DNA of 64,000 nt from Thermodesulfobacteriota bacterium (GCA_965205855.1 OZ242184.1:886570-950569), one strand, 5' to 3'; counted from the first letter of the stretch, positions 9,101 through 52,258 are shown. A program made the numbers and translations. Notes: generated by a model from the sequence alone, not told the origin.

Positions 9101-11047
9101 ATGAAAAGTAGCATATTCAAGAATATATTCATCTGGTTGCTGATTTTTGTCGGTCTCGTAGCGTTCTATCAGTTCAGGGGAATGCCGCAAGACAAGCCGC
9201 TGGAAATATCCTACAGCGATTTTCTCGCCCATGTTGAAAACGGGAAAATCAGCAGTGTGGAAATAACCCTTGAAGATAGCTTAATTCAGGGCTCATTTAC
9301 AAAAGGATTTATCCCGCTGCAAGAGGCATTGCCTGAAAACGCCGCGTCTGTACAAGGCGCTGAAGCGAACAAAACCGACCGGTCTGTTACTTTCAAAACA
9401 TTCGGTCCCGTGGAAGAGAACTACCTGCTTCAAACTCTCAGAGAAAACGGAGTAAAGTTCAGTTACGCGAAAAATTCGGGTAGAAGCTTCGGGCAGATTT
9501 TAATAAGCTGGGGACCGTTTCTGCTCCTTATAATACTTATGGTTTTCTTTCTGCGCCAGATTCAGGCAGGCGGCTCAAAAGCGATGTCCTTCGGCAAGAA
9601 CAAGGCTAAAAAACTGGACACTGAAAACAACAAAATAACATTTGACGATGTGGCGGGAATCGAAGAAGCAAAAGAGGAAGTCGGAGAGATAGTAGACTTT
9701 CTGCAAAACCCGGCAAGGTTCACTTCAATAGGAGGCAAAATTCCGAAAGGGGTGTTGCTTGTTGGGCCCCCCGGAACGGGAAAAACCCTTCTCGCCCGCG
9801 CGATTGCGGGAGAAGCCAACGTTCCATTTTTTCTGATAAGCGGAAGTGATTTTGTTGAAATGTTTGTTGGCGTCGGCGCTTCAAGGGTCAGAGACCTTTT
9901 CGCTCAGGCGAAAAAGAGTGCTCCATGCATAATATTTGTGGATGAACTTGACGCGGTCGGCAGGCACAGAGGAGCTGGTCTTGGAGGAGGCCATGATGAA
10001 AGGGAGCAAACCCTCAACCAGCTTCTTGTGGAAATGGACGGCTTTGAAAACAACAGGGGAACAATAGTTATGGCGGCAACAAACCGTCCCGATGTTCTTG
10101 ACCCTGCGCTTCTGCGTCCGGGGAGGTTTGATAGACAGATAGTTGTTTCCAGACCCGACTTCAAAGGACGCAAAGCCATACTTCAGGTTCACTCAAGAAA
10201 AACCCCTCTGCAAACAAATGTGGACCTTGAGGTAATAGCACTGTCAACTCCGGGGTTTTCCGGCGCGGATCTTGAAAACCTTGTGAATGAGTCGGTTCTT
10301 CACGCTGCGCGCAATGGAAACAAGATGGTCTCAATGGAAGACTTTGAATACGCCAAGGACAAAATAATGATGGGTTCGGAAAGAAAAAGTCTTGTCATAA
10401 ATGAGAAAGAGCGGAATATCACTGCTTACCACGAAGCCGGACACGCCGTGGTCGCAAAACTCACTCCGGGCGCGGACCCAGTGCACAAGGTAACAATTAT
10501 TCCGCGTGGAATGGCTCTCGGCCTCACGCAGCAGATACCCAAAGAAGACACATACACACAGTCGCGCTCTTATCTGAACACTTTGATAATGGTGCTGCTC
10601 GGCGGGCGCGCAGCGGAAGAAATCATCTTCGGAGAACGCACAAGCGGAGCCGGAAACGATTTGAAAAGAGTTACCGAAATAGCCAGAAAGATGGTCTGCG
10701 AGTGGGGAATGAGCGAAAAAATAGGCCCCATATCACTCGCGAAAACCGAAGAGCAAGTTTTCCTCGGAAAAGAGTTTGCGAAAGCATTCGACCACAGTCA
10801 GCGGACCGCCGAAAAAATAGACATGGAAATCAAAGCGATTGTGGAAATGAACTATGGGAAAAGCAAAAGGGTTTTGAACAACAACATAGAACTGCTCAAA
10901 TCGGTTGCCAAGAGGCTTTTAAAAAAAGAAAGCATCACCGGCAGGGAAATAGACGAAATAATGGAAGCCTCAAACCTTTTCGTCAAACATTTTAAAGACA
11001 GAAAATCCTCAGAAATGGAATCGGGGCCGCAACAAGCCCGCGCATGA
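9101..11047 (+). CDS. ftsH: ATP-dependent zinc metalloprotease FtsH.
   Basis: It has an N-terminal TM region, an AAA+ module ([14 protein letters not shown], second region of homology) and HEAGH zinc site. I prefer the ATG at 9101 over the TTG track start at 9059. Confidence 0.85.
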
Positions 11048-11937
11048 TAAAACACATGATATCAACAGTCCGGAACATCAAACCGACGCCTGCCGTTTTA
11101 AAAACAAAGAGCGGGGATATTCCAATGTCCAAACCCCTTGTGATGGGAGTGCTGAATCTGACCCCCGATTCTTTTTACGCGGAAAGCAGATGCGCATCCG
11201 TTGACGAATCGCTTTTCAGAGTTGAAAACATGCTTGATGAGGGAGCGGACATTGTGGATATGGGAGCCGAATCCACACGCCCCGGTTCAATTCCCGTTTC
11301 CGAGAAAGAGGAAACCAAACGGCTGATACCGGTTCTTGAACAGTGCGTGAAAAAATTCGGAGATTCAATTTTTTCCGTGGATACAACCAAAGCCGCCGTC
11401 GCACAGCGCGCTCTTGAAAGCGGCGCTTCAATAATAAATGACATAAGCGGTCTTGCGTTTGAGCCTTCCATAGCAAAATGCGTAGCAGAGGCGGACGCAG
11501 CCATTGTTGTTTCCCACACACCTGAACGCCCGGGCAAAATGCAGTCCCGAACGGACTACACTTGCGTCGTACGCGATGTCATAAAATCCCTGAAACAATC
11601 CGTCGAAAAAGCCGTCAATGCCGGAGTGCGGATTGAGTCCATTGTGATTGACCCGGGAATAGGCTTCGGGAAAACGCAAAATCAGAACCTTGAAATACTC
11701 AACAGACTTGATGAATTCTTTGAAATTGGCCGCCCCGTCCTCGTCGGGACATCCCGCAAGTCTTTTATAGGCGGAGTTCTCGGAGGACTTCCGGCTGAGG
11801 AAAGGATTGAAGGAACCGCCGCGACCGTGACGGTAGCGGTGACGAAAGGCGCTCAAATAGTGCGCGTTCATGACGTAAAAGAAATGGCGCGCGTGGCTAC
11901 AATGTCATACGCGATAAAAAGCGGGATGGCGGCATGA
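11044..11937 (+). CDS. folP: Dihydropteroate synthase.
   Basis: Pterin-binding motifs (VMGVLNLTPDSF, IVDMGAESTRPG, DPGIGFGK) are present. An internal ATG at 11125 (MSKPLVMGV) may be the true start; the 11044 start overlaps the ftsH stop (ATGA). Confidence 0.8.
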   Translation: MIKHMISTVRNIKPTPAVLKTKSGDIPMSKPLVMGVLNLTPDSFYAESRCASVDESLFRVENMLDEGADIVDMGAESTRPGSIPVSEKEETKRLIPVLEQCVKKFGDSIFSVDTTKAAVAQRALESGASIINDISGLAFEPSIAKCVAEADAAIVVSHTPERPGKMQSRTDYTCVVRDVIKSLKQSVEKAVNAGVRIESIVIDPGIGFGKTQNQNLEILNRLDEFFEIGRPVLVGTSRKSFIGGVLGGLPAEERIEGTAATVTVAVTKGAQIVRVHDVKEMARVATMSYAIKSGMAA

Positions 11938-42788: not shown

Positions 42789-43547
42789 TCAATTATGCCA
42801 CAAAAAGGGATGGAGTGTCAAACTATACGGCGACCGCCTGATAGTCGGGGAGTTCACCCATTGTTTTCCCTCAAGAGCGCGTCCCGTCTTCTTTTTGTTC
42901 ACACCGCCCCATTGTTTGAAGAAAAACGGAACCCCGCTTTCAACGCAGTTGTCCCTGATTTCCGTAACCCATTCCTCTTTCATCGGTCTTGCGCCGGGGC
43001 CGGACTCTCCACCGACAATGACCCAGTCTATGCCTGACAAATTGAGGTTTGGAAACGGGGCAAGCAACGGTTCAAGAGAAAGAAACTTCACGCAAGCATC
43101 GGTCTGTTTTAAAACTTCTGTACGGGAAAGATATTTCTCGGACTCTACGCTTGTTCCCATCCAGATGTTGGAAGTCCAGTGCAGGTGTTTGTTCGCCTTC
43201 ACAACCCTTTCCGGTCTTTTTGTGAGAACCTGAAAAGTGTGTTGAGATGCTTCGTTCATAACTTCAAAAACGGACATAATGAATTTTGCGGGAACATCCT
43301 TGTGGAACAAATCGCTCATTGAATTGACAAAAACTATTTTCGGTTTTTTCCATTTAAGCGGGTCTTTCAAAGTGTGTTCATGAGTGGTGAGTTTGAAACC
43401 GTTTCTGTATTTCTCCATCCCTTGAGCGTGAAGCCGCTTTGCCATCCGCTCGGCGTAGCAGTATTTGCAACCGTGGCTGATTTTTGAACAACCGGTAATG
43501 GGGTTCCATGTTGTGTGAGTCCATCCTATTTTGGAGGGTTGGGTCAT
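42789..43547 (-). CDS. Phage Gp37/Gp68 (DUF5131)-like three-Cys protein.
   Basis: Its N-terminus is [26 protein letters not shown] (C-x6-C-x2-C). The start ATG overlaps the res stop (TAATG). Confidence 0.55.
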
Positions 43548-46090
43548 TACTGTTTGTTGATAACACCGTTTATATCGTCCCGCCAGCTGTCTTCAAACAT
43601 CATCCTGAAAGTAGCGGGCGTCTTATTGATGGCCATTTCGCCTCTGTCAAGGGCGATCCTGTATGTTTTTTCAAGCGTGTCGAGCAATTTTTTCTTGTAA
43701 CTCGTATCTTCGCTGCCTTTCAGGTGGATGCCCTTTGTTTCCAGAATTAGCAGTTTTCCGTTATCTTTTCGGCAGGCCACAAAATCGGGATACACGCGCT
43801 GGCGTCGCCAGCCTTGCAGATAGTACGCTTGTCTTGCAGCTATTCTGTGCCACCAGTAGATGGCGTTGCTCTTATCCAGATAAAGCGCAAAATCCCGCTC
43901 CAGACCGTTAAAACTACTTTCATAAACAGGTTCAAAAAGGTTTTGCTGTATAGGTCTGCCATGTTCGCTCTGTAATGATCTTTCTTGACTGGAAACAAAA
44001 ACCTCGAACGACTTGCTCAATTCGTAGTCCAGTCGCTGGTCGGTCTCAAGGTGAAACCGAATCACATTCCGCCCAACCTTTTCCCGAAACACCGCTTCGG
44101 CCTCGTCGTCTATGGCCTTGTTCACGCGGCGGCTCAATTCTTCGGAAAGGTAAATTCGGTTATTCAACAATTTGCTTTCATCGTGTTTCCTGTTTTTATG
44201 TGTTTGAATAAACCCCTCCGCCATGCGCGCCGCCTGCCACGGATTGGGCACCTTGTCCACAAGCCGCCGAACAAAATAATCCACGCTCAGCCGCTTTTCG
44301 CTGTCAGGGATTTGTTCCGAAGCCTTAACCTGCCCTTGAATGTCCACCGTGGTTTTGATCTCCTGAGTGATGTCTCTATCATCCAGATTCACCGCTGCGC
44401 CCGCGTCAATGGTGTCCCAATCAATCGCGCTTAATATATCGCGGTCGTAATCAATGGGGCGCCAGGTGCGCCCCGCTTTGTGTAACACCTGCGGGAGAAA
44501 AATTTTCAATGGCCGGTATTTACCACGACGTTTGACGGTGGTCGGTTTCGGTGCATCGCCCTCGCCATGCCCGTGAACAAAATCGCCAAGCCCGGTCAGC
44601 CCTTCATTCTCCAGGCCGGCCTTCACGCCTTTGATCGCCTTGCCTACGACCTGATTATAGCAATAGATATAACACTGGTTCAGCGCATCGCCTTGTGCGA
44701 TTCTGCGTGCATGGGGTTGCCGCATCACCCGACCGACCATTTGCGTGATGGCGGTGGTTGCGGTGGTGTTATCCAGCAAGGCAAGCAGATATGCAAACGA
44801 GCAATCCCAGCCTTCTTTCAGCGCGTCTTTGGTGATAATCCAGCGCACCTCGCTTGTCTCGCTCAACAAATCCTCACCCGCAAGTTCCTTGCGTTCCGAT
44901 GATTGAATCCTGATGTGATTCTCCGGCACAGCAAGATTTTGTATCAGGTATTCGCGCGCATCCTCCGAATGAATTTTTCCTTGCCCTCTTTGTTTTGCGC
45001 CCGTTCTTTCCACCCTGACCAAAGCGATGGGTCGGATATGGCGGTTTTCCTGTTCCTGTAATTTTTGCGCCGCACTTTCAAGCTCATCCAGTTTTTCCTG
45101 TGTTTTGGCAAGCGTGTGTTCCCAGTCGGAATTGCTGAAACTGTGAATCTCTATCGGCAGTTTGATCATCTCCTCGTCCTGGAGGTCGCGGCCCGATGTG
45201 TTGACCAGGATATTGCTGATGCCGATTTTCGGCGTGGCGGACAGTTCAAGCACAAAACGGGGGTTGAGCCGGTTGACGGATTTGACAAACTCCTGGTTGT
45301 TTTGATTATTCGGTCCATATGCTTTATGCGCTTCGTCCAAAATCACCGTGGGACGAATCAGTTTCAGCACATTGATCAGGCTTTGCTTAACCCAGTCGCC
45401 GGGTGCATTTTTCTCCAGGTCGGGATGGTGTTCCGAAAGCGTTGCATTGGCCGCCGCGTCATCCTGCTCGGGAAAAAACGACATATACCCGCTGCTGTCG
45501 CGGAATATTTTGAGAAACTCCCTGTTCTTTTGCCGGTTGGCGGAGGGTAGCATCAGCAGCATAATGCAAAGATAGTTTTCGGTATCCTGTCGGGTAAAGC
45601 GGTCGGTTTTTTGCAACAATTTGACCCTGCCGCCAGACATATGTTCGAGCATCTGCCGGTAGGTATGTTCGCGGGTGTGGAACGCCTGGCGGGTCTGCTC
45701 GTAGATCGCCCGGGTCGGCACAATCCACAACACAAAGCCGGTATCCCGCTTGATCCGCTCAAGCGTGGCCACGCCCAACAGCGTCTTGCCGCCGCCGGTC
45801 GGCACCTTCAGGCAAACATGCGGGATGGGTTCGCCGGATGCCGCAGTGCGGGAAATGTAGCCGGGAACTGCCATGTCACCGTCTTGGGAAATGCCGGGGA
45901 GGATATTTTGATCTTTCAGCGCCTTCCAAGCTAAGAGGGGATAGTTTTGCAGTTCTTCAGGAATATCAATCCCCGACTCTTCAAGAGCTTTGCCCGCCTT
46001 TTCACTAGTCAGCCGCGCTTCCTTGAGCGCGTCCAGCCAGCGGTCTAACTGTTCAAGAGCTTGTTGCTGATAGTTTTTCAGGGAGAGCAT
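43547..46090 (-). CDS. res: Type III restriction enzyme Res subunit (SF2 helicase plus C-terminal nuclease).
   Basis: It has Walker A (VPTGGGKTL), DEAH (ILDEAHKA), motif VI (QMVGRVMRQ) and a C-terminal PD-(D/E)xK-like ILETKG. The start is set at MLSLKNY (46090), 1 nt after the upstream ORF stop. Confidence 0.75.
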
Positions 46091-46091
46091 A

Positions 46092-46649
46092 TCACGGATT
46101 TTTTGAGTCAGTACTGTCTGAATTATTTGGCAAATTGATGATTTCAACAGGCACATTCCTTTTACCAACTGCAAGACCGACAGCGTAGTTACGGATAATA
46201 GTTTGATCCATTTCCATATCCGCATAGCCTTGTGGATAGTACGAACCCCTTAGAATTTCCATCTGTTCTACCTTAAAATCTAGCACCTTGGCCATTGAGC
46301 TAAGCATCTCCGTGAGCAATTCCATTTGCTCCTTGCCGAGTCGTTCATAGTGCGAACGAGAATCATTTTCTTCGTTAGGCCTCTTAGCATGCGTTTCACC
46401 ATAATGCTTGCGGAGTGCTGCCCATTTTTCTATAACTTCTTTATGCTTAACAAATTCTATCTCAACCAGATTAATGGCTCCGACATAATCAGGTGATAAA
46501 CGCGCATTTCGTGTACGCATTAACGTCTTGAATATATCCATTTTTCGCGCCTTTTGTTCGCGCCATCTGTCAAGAAGACCGTTAACCCAGACAGCTGCGC
46601 AAGGACCGATTAAGATGGCTGCAATGGTGATGATAGAATATGAATTCAT
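46092..46649 (-). CDS. Membrane-anchored hypothetical protein embedded between mod and res.
   Basis: It has one N-terminal TM helix (IITIAAILIGPCAAVWVNGLL) followed by a charged helical domain. It lies 2 nt after the mod stop and 1 nt before the res start, and is visibly AT-richer than its flanks. Confidence 0.6.
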   Translation of the reverse strand: MNSYSIITIAAILIGPCAAVWVNGLLDRWREQKARKMDIFKTLMRTRNARLSPDYVGAINLVEIEFVKHKEVIEKWAALRKHYGETHAKRPNEENDSRSHYERLGKEQMELLTEMLSSMAKVLDFKVEQMEILRGSYYPQGYADMEMDQTIIRNYAVGLAVGKRNVPVEIINLPNNSDSTDSKNP

Positions 46650-46651
46650 GT

Positions 46652-48208
46652 TTATCTTATACCCTCATATGGTAATTGGGCAAAAGTTATCCCCATCTCG
46701 GTTAATGCTTTTTGTCCCATGAATTTGTGAGTGGCGAACACCACCGCGGTTTTCTTTTTTGCCTTGGCCTGTTTGGCGATGCGTTCGGCGCGGGTGCTGT
46801 TCAAAGCGGAATCCGCACTGCGCAGAAAATCAAGGTTCGGCTCGTAGATCAGGTAAAACATTTTGTCACCTGCTTCATAAAATAAACCGTCTTTGCCACG
46901 CCTTGTTTTCGGGTTGAGTTTATGCGGCGATTGTCCGCTTGCGGTATAGATCAGATGGCGGGCAAAGGTTTCATAGCCCGGCAGGTTCCTGCCGGTGAGC
47001 ATTTTTTCAATGCTGATTTCATCGCCCAGTGTGCAATAGGCAAAACTGCCGCCCAGTCCGTTTTTTAGGTTCTCATCCTTTGCTTTTGGTATGCCCTTTA
47101 TCACACGGCGAACGCGCTCGGCGGTGATTTTGTCGGCGTAGTCTTCGCATTCCACCAAGATAAATTTGCGGTTGCCGCCGTCTTCCTTGTTCAGCGCAAG
47201 CACGGCGTGGGCAGTGGTGCCGGAACCGGCGAAGGAGTCGAGGATAATGGCGTTTTTTGTCGTTGCCAGTTGTAAAATCTTTTTCACAAGGGAAATTGGT
47301 TTGGGGTTTTGGAACTGATTAGAACCAAACACCGTCCTCAACTCGATTGTGCCGTTGGTTGTTGTACCTACATCATCCCACCAAGTGCTAGGCGTTAACC
47401 CCCTTCGGCGTGCCTCTGACAAAAAACGTTTGCGCTGAGGTCTGGAACTATTTCTCTTTCCGAATACGATTCTATTGTCTGCAAGAAGCTCCTCAAATTT
47501 GTTCAAATCGTTTTTCCAGCAATTACCTTCAGTGGGGTAAAATATTTCTTTTGTTTTAGGGTTTCTTATCGGATACATCTGATTAGGTCGAACCCCACCA
47601 GCCTCAAATGGATCCGCCTTCCATGGGCCTCTCGGATCATTATCAGGATTTTTGAATCCTTCTAAAATGGCAGGAAGTTTGAAATCTTTTCTAATGGTTT
47701 TTAATACATTCAGTTGTTTAGCATAAGCTATATTATGAGTGTGTGATATTGATACTAATGCAGGATTTGTAATTGATTTTGTGCTATGCCACACAAAATC
47801 TGCAACAAAATTCTCCTCCCCAAAAATCTCATCCATGACCATCCGCAGGCGGTGCTGTTCATTGTCGTCGATGGAAATAAAAATTACGCCATCTTCGGCC
47901 AGCAATTCTCTTAACAACTGCAATCTTGGCCACATCATGCACAGCCATTTGTCGTGCCGCTCCAGGTCTTCGCCATCCACCGGACTTTTGCCTTTCAGCC
48001 ACGCCTTCATCATCGGGCTGTTGACATTGTCGTTATAGACCCATTTCTCATTGCCGGTGTTGTAGGGCGGGTCGATGTAAATGCAGTTGACGCGGCTGGC
48101 ATAGCGCGGCAGCAACGCCTTGAGCGCGTGCAGATTGTCGCCGTGGATAATCAGATTGTCATCAAGGGAAGGGTTACCCCCCCATTTTTCGCTGAAAGAG
48201 ATTTTTTA
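46652..48208 (-). pseudogene. mod: Type III R-M Mod subunit (beta-class N6-adenine methyltransferase) with its 5' end disrupted at a G7 tract; candidate phase-variable gene in the OFF state.
   Basis: DPPY (motif IV) precedes ILDSFAGSGTTAHAV (motif I). Mod-like sequence (DDNLIIHGDNLHALKA) continues upstream of the annotated TTG (48115) to a TAA at about 48208, with no ATG. An upstream ATG ORF (48291..48151) is in another frame and crosses the G7 tract at about 48177-48183. Confidence 0.7.
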
Positions 48209-48284
48209 GTGTCTATCTCAAGTGTCCTGGACGGAACAGTCAGGTGGTGCGCATAAATGAGTTGCTTCCCTTTGAAATCAATTG

Positions 48285-48448
48285 TCGGCATTGAAAACCC
48301 CGTAAATCAGTTTGATATTGGCTTTGAAGATACCCGATTTACTCCCCCAACCTAAACCCCTCAACCTCCCGATGCACCGCCCCTTCCCGTCTCAATTCAC
48401 TCTCCATCAAACAAACTCTTTCAGAAGCAAAACCAAGTTCAAACTGCG
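48285..48448. repeat. Direct repeat copy A of the thpR 3'-terminal sequence (about 164 nt).
   Basis: It is near-identical to copy B and about 90% identical to copy C over tcagtttgatattggctttgaa...caaactgcg. It abuts the mod upstream ATG on one side and the IS fragment on the other. Confidence 0.8.
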
Positions 48449-48768
48449 CCCGCGGTGACATGGAGAACCGGATCAAGGATCAGCAGTTGGATTTGTTTGC
48501 GGATCGCACCTCTTGTCACCGCTGGTGGCCCAACCAGTGCCGGCAGTTGCTGTCAGGGTTGGCTTACACGTTGATTGAGGGATTGCGGCGCCTTGCACTA
48601 CAGGGCACCGAACTGGCCAAAGCCAGTCCTCACAGGATCAGGCTGACACTGCTTAAAATCGGTGCCGTGATCATCCGCAACACGCGCCGCATCCGCCTAC
48701 TGATGAGCAGTGCTTATCCCCATCAGGCGTTGTTCCGCACGGCAGCCTATCGGCTCAACTCCCCATAA
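48449..48768 (+). mobile_element. C-terminal fragment (about 100 aa) of an IS1380-like DDE transposase; IS remnant.
   Basis: ENRIKDQQLDLFADRTSCHRWWPNQ ... LAYTL ... RLTLLKIGA matches the conserved C-terminus of IS1380-family transposases. There is no N-terminal catalytic part, and it starts exactly where repeat A ends. Confidence 0.55.
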
Positions 48769-48959: not shown

Positions 48960-50099
48960 TTATTTTCGGATGAGAAACAGAAATTCTTTATTCGGATCGC
49001 TGGATTCCCGCAACCACTCATTTGTCCATTTCATGGCGGCCATCACATTTTTTTTATACTCAATTTTTGCGCTATCCACAATTTCTCCGTTACGCGTTAT
49101 CACCTCGTTTAATTCCTCCGCGGTTGCTCGTCCACCGGAACTGTAAGAGAGCAAGATCCATCGGCAAGGAGTTTCCTTCAGCAAACGCTCTATGGCTTCC
49201 ACCACAACCAATCGTCCTGATTTGCTTCTACGAAATTCCTCGAACACTGAAGTCGCCACTTTATCGGATGTGTCTTTTCTGCGGAGGGACTTGCCAAATA
49301 GCACGGGATGATCATTTTTACATATGGTCGTCCACAAATGATAATATGAAGCGTACCGAACCCTTGAAGGTGGCATTTTTTCATTGTTTGACCCATACGG
49401 AGGATCAAAATAAGCAAGATCGGCGTCCGCTTCGGGAAGTACCTTAAAAACATCACCACACAGCACCGTGTTTTCGATTTCATTTTTCCACAACCGTGGC
49501 ACTTTCAATTGTAAATTTTTGAATGAACGCGGCGACCAATCTTTTAAATAAGAAACAAAATGACCAAGAGTACTGTCTATCTCATTCAACCCTAAAATCA
49601 GGCTTGTCAATGCCACACTTTTGGAAACGTCATCCAGCATCAAGGCATCGATCTCTCTCCTGATTGCATCAAGTTTTCTTGTATTTTTTTTCTGCCAAGG
49701 CTTTTTGGTTCCATCCTTCTGAATAGCATTATGGCAAGTTCCAGAGCGAACATCACCACCGTAATTCTCAGTAAACCATCCGTCTTCCGGAGGAAGCGAA
49801 TTTAAATGATCAATAAGAGGTTGGTATATTTTCGGGTTTTTTAAGTTTTTCAAATAGCACGTGGCAAAAATTCTTGACCATTCGGAAATATCATTTGATA
49901 CCACGCGATATCCTGCTTGTGCAAAAGATTGACTTACTCTGGTGGAGCCTGAAAAACCGTCAAAAATGCTTTTTGCTCCGGTCTGTTTTGACAGATTAAA
50001 AATATGTGGAAGCAGTTTCAGTTTTGAGCCTGCGTAATTGATGCCTTCGGTTTTTGGAACATCAATCCAATCACGAAAAATTTGAACTTGCCCTTGCAT
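48960..50099 (-). CDS. D12-class (Dam-family) N6-adenine DNA methyltransferase.
   Basis: It has the N-terminal INYAGSKLKLLP motif (compare Dam WAGGK..LL) and FDPPYGS (motif IV), at 379 aa. Confidence 0.7.
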   Translation of the reverse strand: MQGQVQIFRDWIDVPKTEGINYAGSKLKLLPHIFNLSKQTGAKSIFDGFSGSTRVSQSFAQAGYRVVSNDISEWSRIFATCYLKNLKNPKIYQPLIDHLNSLPPEDGWFTENYGGDVRSGTCHNAIQKDGTKKPWQKKNTRKLDAIRREIDALMLDDVSKSVALTSLILGLNEIDSTLGHFVSYLKDWSPRSFKNLQLKVPRLWKNEIENTVLCGDVFKVLPEADADLAYFDPPYGSNNEKMPPSRVRYASYYHLWTTICKNDHPVLFGKSLRRKDTSDKVATSVFEEFRRSKSGRLVVVEAIERLLKETPCRWILLSYSSGGRATAEELNEVITRNGEIVDSAKIEYKKNVMAAMKWTNEWLRESSDPNKEFLFLIRK

Positions 50100-50776
50100 T
50101 ATGTAACTTTAAAGCGGGAAGCCTGCTTGAGTCTAACAATATCATCTTTCACTTTTGCAAGAGCCTCATTCTGGCCGAAATCAGAAGAAACAAGCGCGTG
50201 AGAAAATAGTTGGACCAAGATAGGATTGTGAGAATAATCAACCCATCCATTGGTTATGCTATCAAAATAGTTTAAACCACTTTTTGTATGAGTCCAAAGC
50301 CCTCGCTGGAGGGCATTGGCGGTTGCGCTTCCATAACGCACCTCGCAAATATAAGAATCGCTTGCATCGTAGAAACGATATACTGGGTGCTTTCTACCTT
50401 TCTTTTTTGTTTCTTTTACTATTTTCACCGTTTCAGTTTCAGCGCGGTGGTAATCGAAGACAAGAATATTACACTGTCGATTTTTTTCGTCATAAATTAA
50501 TGGCAAAACATTTACATTGTAAAAATCCGAGAAAGCGGGGTCGGCAAGCACTCGTTGTACATTTTTCTTGCCCACTATTTCATCCCCCTCTTGTGCCAAT
50601 CTCGGAAACATTTTGAAATTCTTGTCGGTTGAAAGTTGAAGGGGACCATCACCATACGCTTTGATGCTAACAGGAAATTCAGCTTCGGTTACTTCATTTA
50701 TTATTTTGATGTCTTCTTCCCGAGATTTGGCTCTGTATAAATCTTTGCCAACATGGATCGAGCGAAAATCATACAT
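50099..50776 (-). CDS. Candidate Type II restriction endonuclease (C-terminal part?), paired with the Dam-like methyltransferase.
   Basis: Its stop overlaps the methyltransferase start. The 225-aa product has no recognised motif, and a 69-aa ORF abuts it 1 nt upstream in another frame. Confidence 0.35.
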   Translation of the reverse strand: MYDFRSIHVGKDLYRAKSREEDIKIINEVTEAEFPVSIKAYGDGPLQLSTDKNFKMFPRLAQEGDEIVGKKNVQRVLADPAFSDFYNVNVLPLIYDEKNRQCNILVFDYHRAETETVKIVKETKKKGRKHPVYRFYDASDSYICEVRYGSATANALQRGLWTHTKSGLNYFDSITNGWVDYSHNPILVQLFSHALVSSDFGQNEALAKVKDDIVRLKQASRFKVT

Positions 50777-51105: not shown

Positions 51106-51335
51106 TCGGCATTGAAAACCCCGTAAATCAGTTTGATATTGGCTTTGAAGATACCCGATTTACTCCCCCAACCTAAACCCCTCAACCTCCCGATGCACCG
51201 CCCCTTCCCGTCTCAATTCACTCTCCATCAAACAAACTCTTTCAGAAGCAAAACCAAGTTCAAACTGCGGCAATTCGGGTAGCTTCATCCTTTTTTTTAT
51301 CCACCCTATCGTAACGTGCGACATAAAATCCCGTT
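51106..51335. repeat. Direct repeat copy B of the thpR 3'-terminal sequence (about 230 nt).
   Basis: It is identical to copy A over about 164 nt and continues to match copy C through ...ataaaatcccgtt. Confidence 0.8.
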
Positions 51336-51461: not shown

Positions 51462-51872
51462 TTAGTGCTCGCCCTCTTGATTAATTTGTTTCCACAAACT
51501 GCCGATAGCAAGTAGTGCTGGAATAATAAGTAGCACCACTACAATTGGCACACTTGATTTAATTACCTCTACATTTAATGCATATACGGTAATAACATCG
51601 GATATGTCCGTCAATAATCTGACAATTAATATCGCTAAAAGTGCTTTATGAGACTTAAGGAATAAAGCAACTATTATCCCTATAACTACCATTACATTTC
51701 TTGTAATGTAAAGTTGTGTAACATAATTCAATTCGGAAACCTCTGGTATGAAACCACTTGGGTTCATGGCCGTACCAGCTGAGAAGAAAAGCACTAAAGA
51801 TATTTGTATTAGAACAATGACCCATACCCAAATAGGTAAGAATCCATTGGTTTGACCATTTTTGTAATTCAT
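51462..51872 (-). CDS. Hypothetical 4-TM membrane protein (AT-rich cargo gene).
   Basis: It has four hydrophobic segments and low GC relative to the flanks, and sits between repeat copies C and B. Confidence 0.5.
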   Translation of the reverse strand: MNYKNGQTNGFLPIWVWVIVLIQISLVLFFSAGTAMNPSGFIPEVSELNYVTQLYITRNVMVVIGIIVALFLKSHKALLAILIVRLLTDISDVITVYALNVEVIKSSVPIVVVLLIIPALLAIGSLWKQINQEGEH

Positions 51873-52050: not shown

Positions 52051-52258
52051 TCAGTTTGATATTGGCTTTGAAAATACCCGATTTACTCCCCCAACCTAAA
52101 ACCCTCAACCTCCCGATGCACCGCCCCTTCTCGTCTCAATTCACTCTCCATCAAACAAACCCTGTCAGAAACAAACTCAAGTTTAAACTGCGGCAATTCG
52201 GGCAGTTTTATCCTTTTTCTTATCCGCCCTATCGTAATGTGTGGTATAAAATCCCGTT
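52051..52258. repeat. Repeat copy C: the resident 3' end of thpR plus about 30 nt downstream, the source sequence of copies A and B.
   Basis: It overlaps thpR codons for ...HITIGRIRKRIKLPELPQFKLEFVSDRVCLMESELRREGAVHREVEGFRLGE*. Confidence 0.8.

What the first reader, a model, noticed from the sequence alone, without database searches (positions are those of the whole stretch)
46092..46649. Membrane-anchored 185-aa unknown embedded between mod and res
It has a single N-terminal TM helix followed by a charged, helix-rich ~150-aa cytoplasmic domain with no catalytic motif I can recognise. The gene is visibly AT-richer than mod and res, yet sits at 2-nt and 1-nt spacings, which implies co-translation with both. 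A membrane-tethered component inside a restriction operon is unusual. It could couple restriction to the membrane or to phage entry, or act as an abortive-infection toxin or regulator.
Basis: seen in the sequence. Interest (0 to 1): 0.6.

Follow-up and report, generated by a model that had tools for sequence, protein, structure and literature searches.

The report
DUF6680 membrane protein inside restriction operon
The small gene between the two restriction-enzyme genes is real and encodes a membrane-anchored protein of a large, uncharacterised family (DUF6680) that moves between genomes, prophages and plasmids; it was captured once by this restriction system and looks like an add-on rather than part of the enzyme.

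Summary
A 185-aa ORF (46092..46649, minus strand) lies 2 nt after mod and 1 nt before res. It is AT-richer than both and has one N-terminal TM helix followed by an all-helical domain.

The protein is a full-length member of Pfam DUF6680 (E 6e-47). The family has about 2,800 50%-identity clusters and no literature. No defence, phage or solved-structure homologue turned up; the fold is a generic helical bundle.

Context in 70 species-level genomes:
- 4 (plus the window) sit between Type III mod and res. These form one clade, all in sponge-symbiont MAGs.
- 2 sit inside a Type I operon.
- 30 are paired with a ~112-aa, weakly GrlR-like gene.
- 6 follow nrdJ.
- Others lie at prophage edges, including the P2 gpA–gpQ defence hotspot, or next to TA or TIR genes, or among housekeeping genes.

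The gene is AT-richer than its host in every locus tested (55/55). Related Type III systems have mod and res overlapping directly, with no insert.

Best reading: a mobile accessory gene captured once and kept under purifying selection (dN/dS 0.3–0.6). It is probably a membrane-level phage-exclusion factor, not a restriction subunit. The function is inferred, not shown.

In passing: mod carries a frameshifting poly-G tract (G7 here, G24 in the ortholog).

The parts
46092..46649 (-). DUF6680-family gene (185 aa): N-terminal TM helix (about residues 4-25, with the family-invariant G15-P16) and a predicted cytoplasmic helical-bundle domain.
   Evidence: Pfam PF20385, E 5.9e-47, residues 1-177. Hydropathy. 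AF2 model, pLDDT 87. All 17 family-invariant residues retained.
46652..48115 (-). Type III mod, main reading frame (DPPY motif through to the C-terminus). The listed ORF starts at an internal TTG; the reading frame continues upstream to the poly-G tract.
   Evidence: N6_N4_Mtase, E 5e-32. PADLOC MTase_III, E 9e-146, matching only from profile position about 55 onward.
48151..48291 (-). N-terminal 46 codons of mod, in a different frame (MPTIDFKGKQLIYAHHLTVP...), ending at a premature stop after the frameshift.
   Evidence: The N-terminus aligns with the Mod N-termini of L004, L011 and L007.
48177..48183 (-). G7 homopolymer in mod that puts the gene out of frame. G8 would restore full-length Mod. 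The ortholog in L005 has G24 at the same site.
43547..46090 (-). Type III res (847 aa), apparently intact. Its ATG lies 1 nt after the DUF6680 stop.
   Evidence: ResIII, E 2.7e-14. PADLOC REase_III PDLC03653, E 6e-213, nearly full length.
42789..43547 (-). DUF5131 (phage Gp37/Gp68 family) gene. Its ATG overlaps the res stop by 1 nt (TAATG). It is probably the fourth gene of the transcription unit in this window only.
   Evidence: PF07505, E 3.8e-98. Junction sequence. Absent downstream of res in L004, L005 and L011.

Best explanation
The ORF encodes a DUF6680-family protein. A single N-terminal transmembrane helix tethers a helical-bundle domain to the inner (cytoplasmic) face of the membrane.

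DUF6680 genes are small, compositionally foreign, horizontally mobile accessory genes. They occur alone or with a ~112-aa partner gene, in variable chromosomal spots, at prophage edges and hotspots, on plasmids and inside R-M operons. One such gene was inserted once into the overlapping mod-res junction of a Type III R-M lineage that circulates among sponge-associated bacteria. It has been kept there, translationally coupled to both neighbours, under purifying selection.

It is not a subunit of the restriction enzyme. Most likely it is an independently acting, membrane-level phage-exclusion or abortive-infection-type factor. It would gain co-transfer and co-regulation by riding in the R-M operon, including ON/OFF control by the poly-G tract in mod, and so form a two-layer defence cassette.

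Shown: family membership, anatomy, single capture, retention, mobility and AT-bias, and absence from sister R-M systems.
Inferred: cytoplasmic orientation (positive-inside rule), co-translation, and the defence function.
For: Membership and anatomy.

Size of the family: 2,828 50%-identity clusters and 655 90%-identity clusters.

Single capture:
- The mod/res-embedded DUF6680s (window, L005, L004, L011) form one clade in the family tree.
- Their Mod and Res proteins also form one clade.
- In 8 DUF-less metagenomic relatives whose junction was read (Res 38-49% identical in most; two are more distant, about 30%), mod and res abut or overlap directly. No DUF6680 was found in any of the 10 loci that carry both genes.

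Retention:
- The same slot and the same 1-3 nt junctions are kept while Res diverges to 37% and Mod to 48% identity.
- dN/dS is 0.31-0.60.
- In L007, mod, DUF6680 and res have decayed together.

Mobility and foreignness:
- The DUF6680 gene is AT-richer than the whole locus in 55/55 genomes (mean -10 GC points).
- It is AT-richer than neighbouring genes in 57/57 genomes (GC3 -21 points).
- The cassette sits at different chromosomal sites in each genome.

Defence or mobile contexts elsewhere:
- Inside a Type I operon, hsdM-abiEi-like-partner-DUF6680-hsdS-hsdR, in two Porisulfidus MAGs.
- Next to a Type ISP fragment, MTases, DpdF and a Type IIG enzyme.
- Next to TIR plus IS110, ImmA plus DUF4411, and HicAB, and at prophage ends.
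- In a P2-like Yersinia phage, between gpA and gpQ. That locus is the published P2 defence hotspot (PMC9122126).
- In 86 Ralstonia prophage records and on Vibrio plasmids.
Against: - Many family members sit among housekeeping genes with no defence or mobile gene in view. Examples are purM/purN, rpoD, cysS/leuA and nrdJ.
- The nrdJ linkage in 6 genomes is unexplained.
- Neighbour annotation covered mostly the +/-1 genes, used a home-made gene caller, and had no matched control set. Enrichment near defence genes is therefore suggestive, not demonstrated.
- Trees are neighbour-joining without support values.
- Deep retention in the mod-res slot would also fit a true functional link to restriction.
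Confidence: 0.5

Rival explanations
1. It is a genuine functional accessory of this Type III R-M system. For example, it could be a membrane tether that concentrates Res-Mod at the inner membrane where phage DNA enters. Or it could be a modulator that sets the Mod:Res ratio or delays Res activity after transfer of the cassette to a new host.
For: - It sits in exactly the same slot with conserved 1-3 nt junctions in four cassettes whose Res proteins are only 37% identical.
- It is under purifying selection.
- The whole cassette decayed together in L007.
- DUF6680 alleles appear to have been exchanged between cassettes while keeping the slot. The L004 DUF is 66% identical to the window's but 46% to L011's, whereas the L004 Res is 86% identical to L011's.
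- A second R-M type (Type I) also harbours a DUF6680 inside its operon.
Against: - 61 of 70 representative family members have no R-M gene nearby.
- The family's commonest partner is a small GrlR-like protein, not an R-M subunit.
- Sister Type III systems function as plain overlapping mod-res pairs.
- Established knowledge of Type III enzymes (EcoP15I is a Mod2Res1 complex, PMC3333885 listed) includes no third subunit.
- No interaction evidence is available.
Confidence: 0.17
2. It has no role in phage defence. It is a mobile-element 'passenger' with another function, such as a membrane or stress-related factor, a lysogenic-conversion-type gene, or an addiction or toxin-like module. It landed in the mod-res junction and persists because excising it would break translational coupling of res.
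For: - Many family members lie in housekeeping surroundings.
- It is linked to nrdJ in 6 genomes across Alpha- and Gammaproteobacteria.
- A two-gene architecture with an overlapping small partner is found in 27/70 genomes, which resembles TA-like pairs.
- In Porisulfidus the pair follows an AbiEi-type antitoxin or regulator gene.
- dN/dS is somewhat relaxed, at 0.6 for the window versus L005, compared with 0.21 for res.
Against: - Purifying selection at the protein level is still evident (0.31 at greater divergence), and all invariant residues are retained.
- It recurs in defence-type loci of three independent kinds: R-M operons, the P2 hotspot, and TIR or TA islets.
- The mod/res-embedded clade and a large alphaproteobacterial clade lack the partner. 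The protein therefore cannot be a toxin that needs that partner as its antidote.
Confidence: 0.28
3. It is a spurious ORF or an annotation artefact in an AT-rich spacer between mod and res.
For: It has atypical composition relative to its neighbours.
Against: - It gives a full-length, 160-bit match to a curated Pfam family.
- Thousands of homologs exist.
- The AF2 model is confident.
- dN/dS is below 1.
Confidence: 0.01

Closest known systems
Pfam DUF6680 (PF20385), family of unknown function
   Same: The ORF is a full-length member at 159.9 bits. It has the same size, the same N-terminal TM helix with the invariant Gly-Pro, and all invariant polar residues (T46, R47, E63, E93, R103, Q129, Y137, R153).
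   Different: Nothing differs in the protein itself. What differs is the context. This clade lacks the ~112-aa partner gene found in 43% of sampled genomes and instead sits between Type III mod and res.
Classical two-gene Type III R-M operons (EcoP1I/EcoP15I-type mod-res)
   Same: Mod (beta-class N6-adenine MTase) lies upstream of Res (SF2 helicase-nuclease) on one strand with tight coupling. The nearest DUF-less relatives have mod and res overlapping by 8 nt.
   Different: A third gene is inserted at the junction, and a DUF5131 gene is coupled downstream in this window. No third subunit is known for Type III enzymes.
Accessory defence genes embedded in Type I R-M loci (e.g. the PrrC anticodon nuclease in the E. 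coli prr/hsd locus; Abi/TA genes between hsd genes) — cited from general knowledge
   Same: An unrelated gene is nested inside an R-M operon and co-inherited and co-expressed with it. DUF6680 itself is nested in a Type I operon in Porisulfidus MAGs.
   Different: PrrC is a soluble ATPase-nuclease that physically senses EcoprrI. DUF6680 is a membrane-anchored helical bundle with no nuclease or NTPase motif, and no evidence exists that it senses the R-M enzyme.
Prophage-encoded exclusion genes in the P2 gpA-gpQ hotspot (old, tin and others; PMC9122126)
   Same: A DUF6680 gene occupies that hotspot in Yersinia phage vB_YenM_31.17. Like those genes it is a small, AT-rich, variable cargo gene.
   Different: There is no sequence or fold similarity to Old, Tin or any system tested in that paper. 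Activity has not been tested.
Phase-variable Type III mod genes (phasevarions; H. pylori modH poly-G, PMC3230613)
   Same: A poly-G tract inside the 5' part of mod shifts the frame. Its length differs between orthologs (G7 versus G24).
   Different: The hosts are sponge-associated environmental bacteria, not host-adapted pathogens. G7 is short. Switching has not been observed. Here the switch would also gate the two downstream genes, DUF6680 and res.

Membership tests
Pfam DUF6680 (PF20385) | HMM score above the curated gathering threshold over most of the model | tested here: met
   159.9 bits against a cut-off of 23.2. Residues 1-177 match model positions 1-168 of 170.
Pfam DUF6680 (PF20385) | Family-invariant residues and an N-terminal hydrophobic helix with Gly-Pro | tested here: met
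   The 17 invariant columns of a 120-sequence alignment are all present in the window protein. Hydropathy maximum 2.04 at residues 4-22.
DUF6680 + ~112-aa partner two-gene module | A partner gene immediately upstream, usually with a 4-nt ATGA overlap | tested here: not met
   The partner HMM finds nothing in the six-frame translation of the window at E<=10. It is present in 30 of 70 other genomes.
Type III restriction-modification system | Mod: beta-class N6-adenine MTase with a DPPY motif and Type III Mod profile match | tested here: met
   N6_N4_Mtase E 5e-32. PADLOC MTase_III E 9e-146. DPPY is seen in the translation. However, the gene is frameshifted at G7.
Type III restriction-modification system | Res: SF2 helicase-type ATPase with a Type III REase profile over its full length | tested here: met
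   ResIII E 2.7e-14. PADLOC REase_III PDLC03653 E 6e-213, covering 3-841 of 847 residues.
Type III restriction-modification system | The third protein is a known subunit or a conserved component of the family | tested here: not met
   10 metagenomic relatives have mod and res with no DUF6680 between them; the junctions read abut or overlap directly. DUF6680 matches no PADLOC R-M model.
Known anti-phage defence systems (PADLOC-DB v2) | A profile match to any catalogued defence protein | tested here: not met
   0 families at E<=0.1.
Defence-island gene (guilt by association) | Significant enrichment of known defence genes in the neighbourhood across the family, relative to controls | tested here: inconclusive
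   9 of 70 genomes have R-M genes within about 1.5 kb. About 7 of 11 Pfam-annotated contexts are R-M, prophage-edge, TA or TIR. No matched control set was available, and the seed-based distance test is circular.
Toxin-antitoxin / abortive-infection membrane effector | Toxicity or infection-triggered growth arrest, with a cognate neutraliser | not testable with these tools
   The evidence is indirect only: an overlapping small partner gene in 27/70 genomes, and an AbiEi-like gene upstream in L018 and L021.
Phase-variable (phasevarion-type) Type III mod | A simple-sequence repeat inside the mod ORF whose length changes shift the frame | tested here: met
   G7 at 48177..48183 is out of frame, and G8 restores the frame. 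The ortholog has G24 at the same site and is also out of frame.
Phase-variable (phasevarion-type) Type III mod | Observed ON/OFF length heterogeneity within a population | not testable with these tools
   This needs the raw reads of the assemblies.
GrlR-like beta-barrel (for the partner protein, not the window ORF) | Sequence or fold similarity to GrlR (PDB 2ovs, 4kt5) | tested here: inconclusive
   The partner profile hits 2ovs and 4kt5 at E about 0.01 (19 bits) over the N-terminal 50 residues only. A single-sequence search and Pfam find nothing. No fold search was left to test the fold.

The most novel reading that the evidence does not exclude
DUF6680 is a new, widespread, single-protein (or two-protein, with the GrlR-like partner) membrane-anchored anti-phage module. 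In this lineage it has become functionally wired to a phase-variable Type III R-M system. For example, it could sense failed restriction or phage DNA entry at the membrane and trigger exclusion or abortive infection. The cassette would then be a three-component, phase-switchable, two-layer defence system.
Probability: 0.15. Interest if true: 0.7.

Novelty: new variant of a known kind. Interest (0 to 1): 0.42.

Why it matters
If DUF6680 is an exclusion or abortive-infection factor, about 2,800 sequence clusters of a completely uncharacterised family would gain a function. That family is common in Alphaproteobacteria, in sponge symbionts and in prophages of Ralstonia and Yersinia.

The three-gene cassette would then be a clean natural example of a second defence layer welded into a Type III R-M operon and switched together with it by a poly-G tract.

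Even if it has no defence role, three family-wide regularities found here are new, testable handles on a DUF with no literature:
- it is always AT-richer than its host;
- it has a translationally coupled ~112-aa partner in about 40% of genomes;
- it recurs inside R-M operons and at prophage hotspots.

If it turns out to be a passive passenger, the finding is ordinary.

Tried and rejected
- **Profile libraries.** PADLOC, NCBIfam and PHROGs give no hit for the ORF. The only other Pfam hit, FAM192A_Fyv6_N (19 bits, below cut-off), falls in the charged linker and was dismissed.
- **Structure.**
  - Foldseek against PDB gives E>=1.9 and against BFVD E>=0.69.
  - Weak Foldseek hits to hemerythrin-like DcrH prompted the idea of a His/Glu metal site.
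  - AFDB50 was not available.
  - The profile against PDB sequences gives nothing below E 2.
- **Literature.** 'DUF6680' and 'PF20385' return 0 papers.
- **E. coli.** There is no DNA match to the Yersinia-phage DUF6680 gene.
- **Distance test.** R-M seeds against the 70 loci give 17 of 19 hits within 3 kb of DUF6680. I rejected this as evidence because the seeds came from genes next to DUF6680.
- **Polyubiquitin hits.** Hits of the partner profile are summed-repeat artefacts and were ignored.
- **Spurious ORF.** Rejected.
- **Independent insertions.** I considered whether DUF6680 entered the two Res sublineages separately. The DUF, Mod and Res trees each group the DUF-bearing systems. That favours one capture with later allele exchange, but without support values.

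Full report
**1. The observation**

The ORF at 46092..46649 on the minus strand is real and is as described.
- It starts with ATG 2 nt after the TAA of mod. Its TGA is followed by one base and then the ATG of res (TGAtATG; res runs 43547..46090).
- Hydropathy peaks at 2.04 over residues 4-22. The segment is followed by a cluster of Arg and Lys. By the positive-inside rule (inference), the 150-residue C-terminal part lies in the cytoplasm.
- An AlphaFold2 model built on 120 homologs is confident (pLDDT 87, pTM 0.70) and entirely helical. One long helix (3-45) spans the membrane anchor and its extension, and four to five further helices form a bundle.
- The gene has 42.1% GC (GC3 39.8%), against 46.8% (GC3 52.3%) for mod and 51.7% (GC3 60.7%) for res.
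- No terminator-like site and no convincing promoter separate the three genes on the coding strand.

**2. What the protein is**

It is a full-length member of Pfam DUF6680 (PF20385): E 5.9e-47, 159.9 bits against a cut-off of 23.2.
- The family is large. There are 655 90%-identity clusters by word-indexed search. There are 2,828 50%-identity cluster representatives at E<=1e-3 by exhaustive HMM search, nearly all 170-230 aa.
- The window protein keeps all 17 invariant positions of a 120-sequence alignment. These include a Gly-Pro inside the TM helix and a set of polar residues (T46, R47, E63, E93, R103, Q129, Y137, R153).
- Nothing is known about the family. No paper in the library contains 'DUF6680' or 'PF20385'.
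- PADLOC, NCBIfam and PHROGs have no model for it.

**3. The surrounding operon**

- Upstream is a Type III Mod (PADLOC MTase_III, E 9e-146). Downstream is an apparently intact Type III Res (REase_III, E 6e-213, full length).
- The mod ORF as listed lacks about 55 N-terminal residues. These are present upstream in another frame (ATG at 48291). The two parts are separated by a G7 run at 48177..48183, and one extra G restores a full-length Mod.
- The ortholog in a Candidatus Spongiihabitans MAG (L005) carries G24 at exactly the same position and is also out of frame. More distant cassettes have no tract.
- This is the signature of a poly-G contingency locus, as known for H. pylori modH (PMC3230613, listed). 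Because DUF6680 and res are coupled behind mod, the switch would affect all three genes (inference).
- A DUF5131 gene overlaps the res stop by 1 nt, in this window only.
- The whole region lies in a stack of small islets bounded by three copies of the 3' end of ligT/thpR. One of these islets holds a Type II R-M system.

**4. Is the ORF conserved with this R-M system?**

Yes, within a sub-lineage.
- The two closest homologs (81% and 66% identity) sit between mod and res at unrelated chromosomal sites in two sponge-symbiont MAGs. A 42% homolog (L011) does the same, and a fourth cassette (L007) has decayed as a whole.
- The junctions are conserved: TGA, then 1-3 nt, then ATG.
- Across these cassettes Res identity falls to 37% and Mod identity to 48%, while DUF6680 stays in place.
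- dN/dS for DUF6680 is 0.60 (window versus L005) and 0.31 (window versus L004). Res gives about 0.21.
- Gene histories are partly discordant. The DUF6680 of L004 is closest to the window's, whereas its Res is closest to L011's. This suggests allele exchange between cassettes.
- In neighbour-joining trees the embedded DUF6680s form one clade within the family. The DUF-bearing Mod and Res proteins also group together.
- A metagenome scan with the Res alignment found 10 loci carrying related mod and res genes. Most have Res 38-49% identical to the window's, about as similar as L004 and L011; two are more distant at about 30%. None contains a DUF6680. At the 8 junctions read, mod and res abut or overlap directly (for example ATGCGCCTTAA).
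- The simplest history is one insertion into an ancestral overlapping mod-res junction.

**5. Is the family tied to R-M?**

Mostly not. I surveyed 70 species-representative genomes.
- Only 9 have an R-M gene within about 1.5 kb: the four Type III cassettes; two Porisulfidus MAGs; and three loci next to a Type ISP fragment, a small MTase or a DUF1156 MTase.
- In the two Porisulfidus MAGs the gene lies inside a Type I operon (hsdM, AbiEi-like, partner, DUF6680, hsdS, hsdR).
- The commonest neighbour is a ~112-aa protein with no Pfam family. It lies immediately upstream, typically with an ATGA overlap, in 27 genomes, and tail-to-tail in 3 more.
- The partner's profile weakly matches the N-terminal half of GrlR (PDB 2ovs and 4kt5, E about 0.01). 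This is a lead only.
- The window has no such gene.
- Six genomes have DUF6680 just downstream of the class II ribonucleotide reductase nrdJ. This is unexplained.
- Eleven Pfam-annotated contexts break down as follows:
  - two Type III cassettes;
  - one following an MTase-like fragment;
  - two at prophage edges;
  - one next to TIR plus IS110;
  - one next to ImmA plus DUF4411;
  - four purely housekeeping.
- DUF6680 genes also occur in phage and plasmid records:
  - In a P2-like Yersinia phage the gene lies between gpA and gpQ. That locus is described as the P2 anti-phage hotspot (PMC9122126).
  - It occurs at the end of Ralstonia prophages, in 86 records.
  - It occurs in a Brevundimonas jumbo phage.
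  - It occurs on Vibrio plasmids.

**6. A family-wide compositional signature**

- The DUF6680 gene is below the GC of its own locus in 55 of 55 genomes (mean -10 points).
- It is below the mean of neighbouring genes in 57 of 57 (GC -12 points, GC3 -21 points).
- Hosts range from 33% to 70% GC.
- The partner gene shares this bias in 29 of 30 loci.
- This marks the gene, or gene pair, as compositionally foreign wherever it is found. That is typical of horizontally mobile cargo such as defence genes and prophage morons (interpretation).

**7. Mechanism**

Shown:
- the protein is a membrane-anchored helical-bundle protein;
- it is mobile;
- it was captured once at the mod-res junction and retained;
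- it is absent from sister R-M systems.

Inferred:
- it is co-translated with mod and res;
- its soluble domain faces the cytoplasm;
- it acts independently of the restriction enzyme.

My best guess at function is phage exclusion or abortive infection at the membrane, packaged with R-M as a second layer (confidence about 0.5 for the whole statement, lower for the function itself).

Rivals:
- a true R-M accessory, as tether or modulator (0.17);
- a non-defence passenger or addiction-type gene (0.28);
- an artefact (0.01).

**8. Limits**

- Neighbour calls rest on a simple codon-usage gene finder of my own.
- Mostly only the +/-1 genes were annotated.
- There is no matched control for enrichment.
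- The genome sample was retrieved through three peptide patterns and may under-sample divergent subfamilies.
- Trees carry no support values.
- The source organism of the window was not identified.

**9. Verdict**

The ORF is a new context (variant) for a known but uncharacterised family, inside an otherwise ordinary and possibly phase-variable Type III R-M operon.

Interest is moderate. There is no surprise at the level of mechanism yet. It is, however, a well-defined and cheaply testable candidate, and several family-wide regularities had not been described.

Noticed in passing
window 48177..48183 (with mod pieces 48151..48291 and 46652..48115); L005 8396-8419: mod is frameshifted at a G7 run, and G8 would restore full-length Mod. 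The ortholog in a Candidatus Spongiihabitans MAG has G24 at the same codon position and is also out of frame. This looks like a poly-G phase-variable Type III mod in sponge-associated bacteria, and the switch would also gate DUF6680 and res.
   Followed up: partly
window 48300-48448, 51121-51269, 52051-52192: There are three direct copies of the last ~145 bp of ligT/thpR. Two are 100% identical, and the real gene end is 94% identical to them. They bound small islets: Type III R-M plus DUF5131; an IS fragment plus a Type II R-M; and a 136-aa multi-TM ORF at 51462..51872. This suggests repeated integration at one att-like site.
   Followed up: partly
window 42789..43547 (-): A DUF5131 (phage Gp37/Gp68 family) gene has its ATG overlapping the res stop (TAATG). 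It is therefore probably co-translated as a fourth operon gene. It is absent from the related cassettes in L004, L005 and L011.
   Followed up: no
window 48460..48768 (+): This is a C-terminal 100-aa fragment of a DDE_Tnp_1_4 (IS1380-type) transposase, E 8e-34. It directly abuts a ligT-end repeat and is an IS remnant between the two R-M systems.
   Followed up: no
window 48960..50776 (-): A second, complete R-M system lies here: a D12-class adenine MTase (379 aa; PADLOC MTase_II, E 7e-162) overlapping a Type II REase (225 aa; E 1e-99). It is even AT-richer, at 40-42% GC.
   Followed up: no
L018 6740-15501 and L021 6741-15484 (Candidatus Porisulfidus MAGs): A Type I operon is interrupted by three genes: hsdM, an AbiEi-like HTH gene, the ~112-aa partner, DUF6680, then hsdS and hsdR. 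The HsdR carries a C-terminal Schlafen/AlbA_2 domain.
   Followed up: partly
27 loci, e.g. L036 9603-9941, L027 9621-9980, L037 9648-9986: An uncharacterised ~112-aa protein family (consensus MxGxYAxYYTGxxGxGHAV...GPVNVIFKKLR) is translationally coupled upstream of DUF6680. It has no Pfam family and gives a weak profile hit to GrlR (E about 0.01). It is AT-richer than the host, like DUF6680.
   Followed up: partly
L016, L020, L029, L047, L072 (gene -1) and L054 (gene -2): DUF6680 lies directly downstream of class II (B12-dependent) ribonucleotide reductase nrdJ in six genomes. These include Alphaproteobacteria and a Marinobacter. The linkage is unexplained.
   Followed up: no
L074 5890-6552 (Yersinia phage vB_YenM_31.17, record 10426-11088): A DUF6680 gene (Pfam E 4e-31) occupies the gpA-gpQ accessory locus of a P2-like phage, the locus reported as a defence hotspot in E. 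coli P2-like prophages. No E. coli counterpart was found by DNA search.
   Followed up: partly
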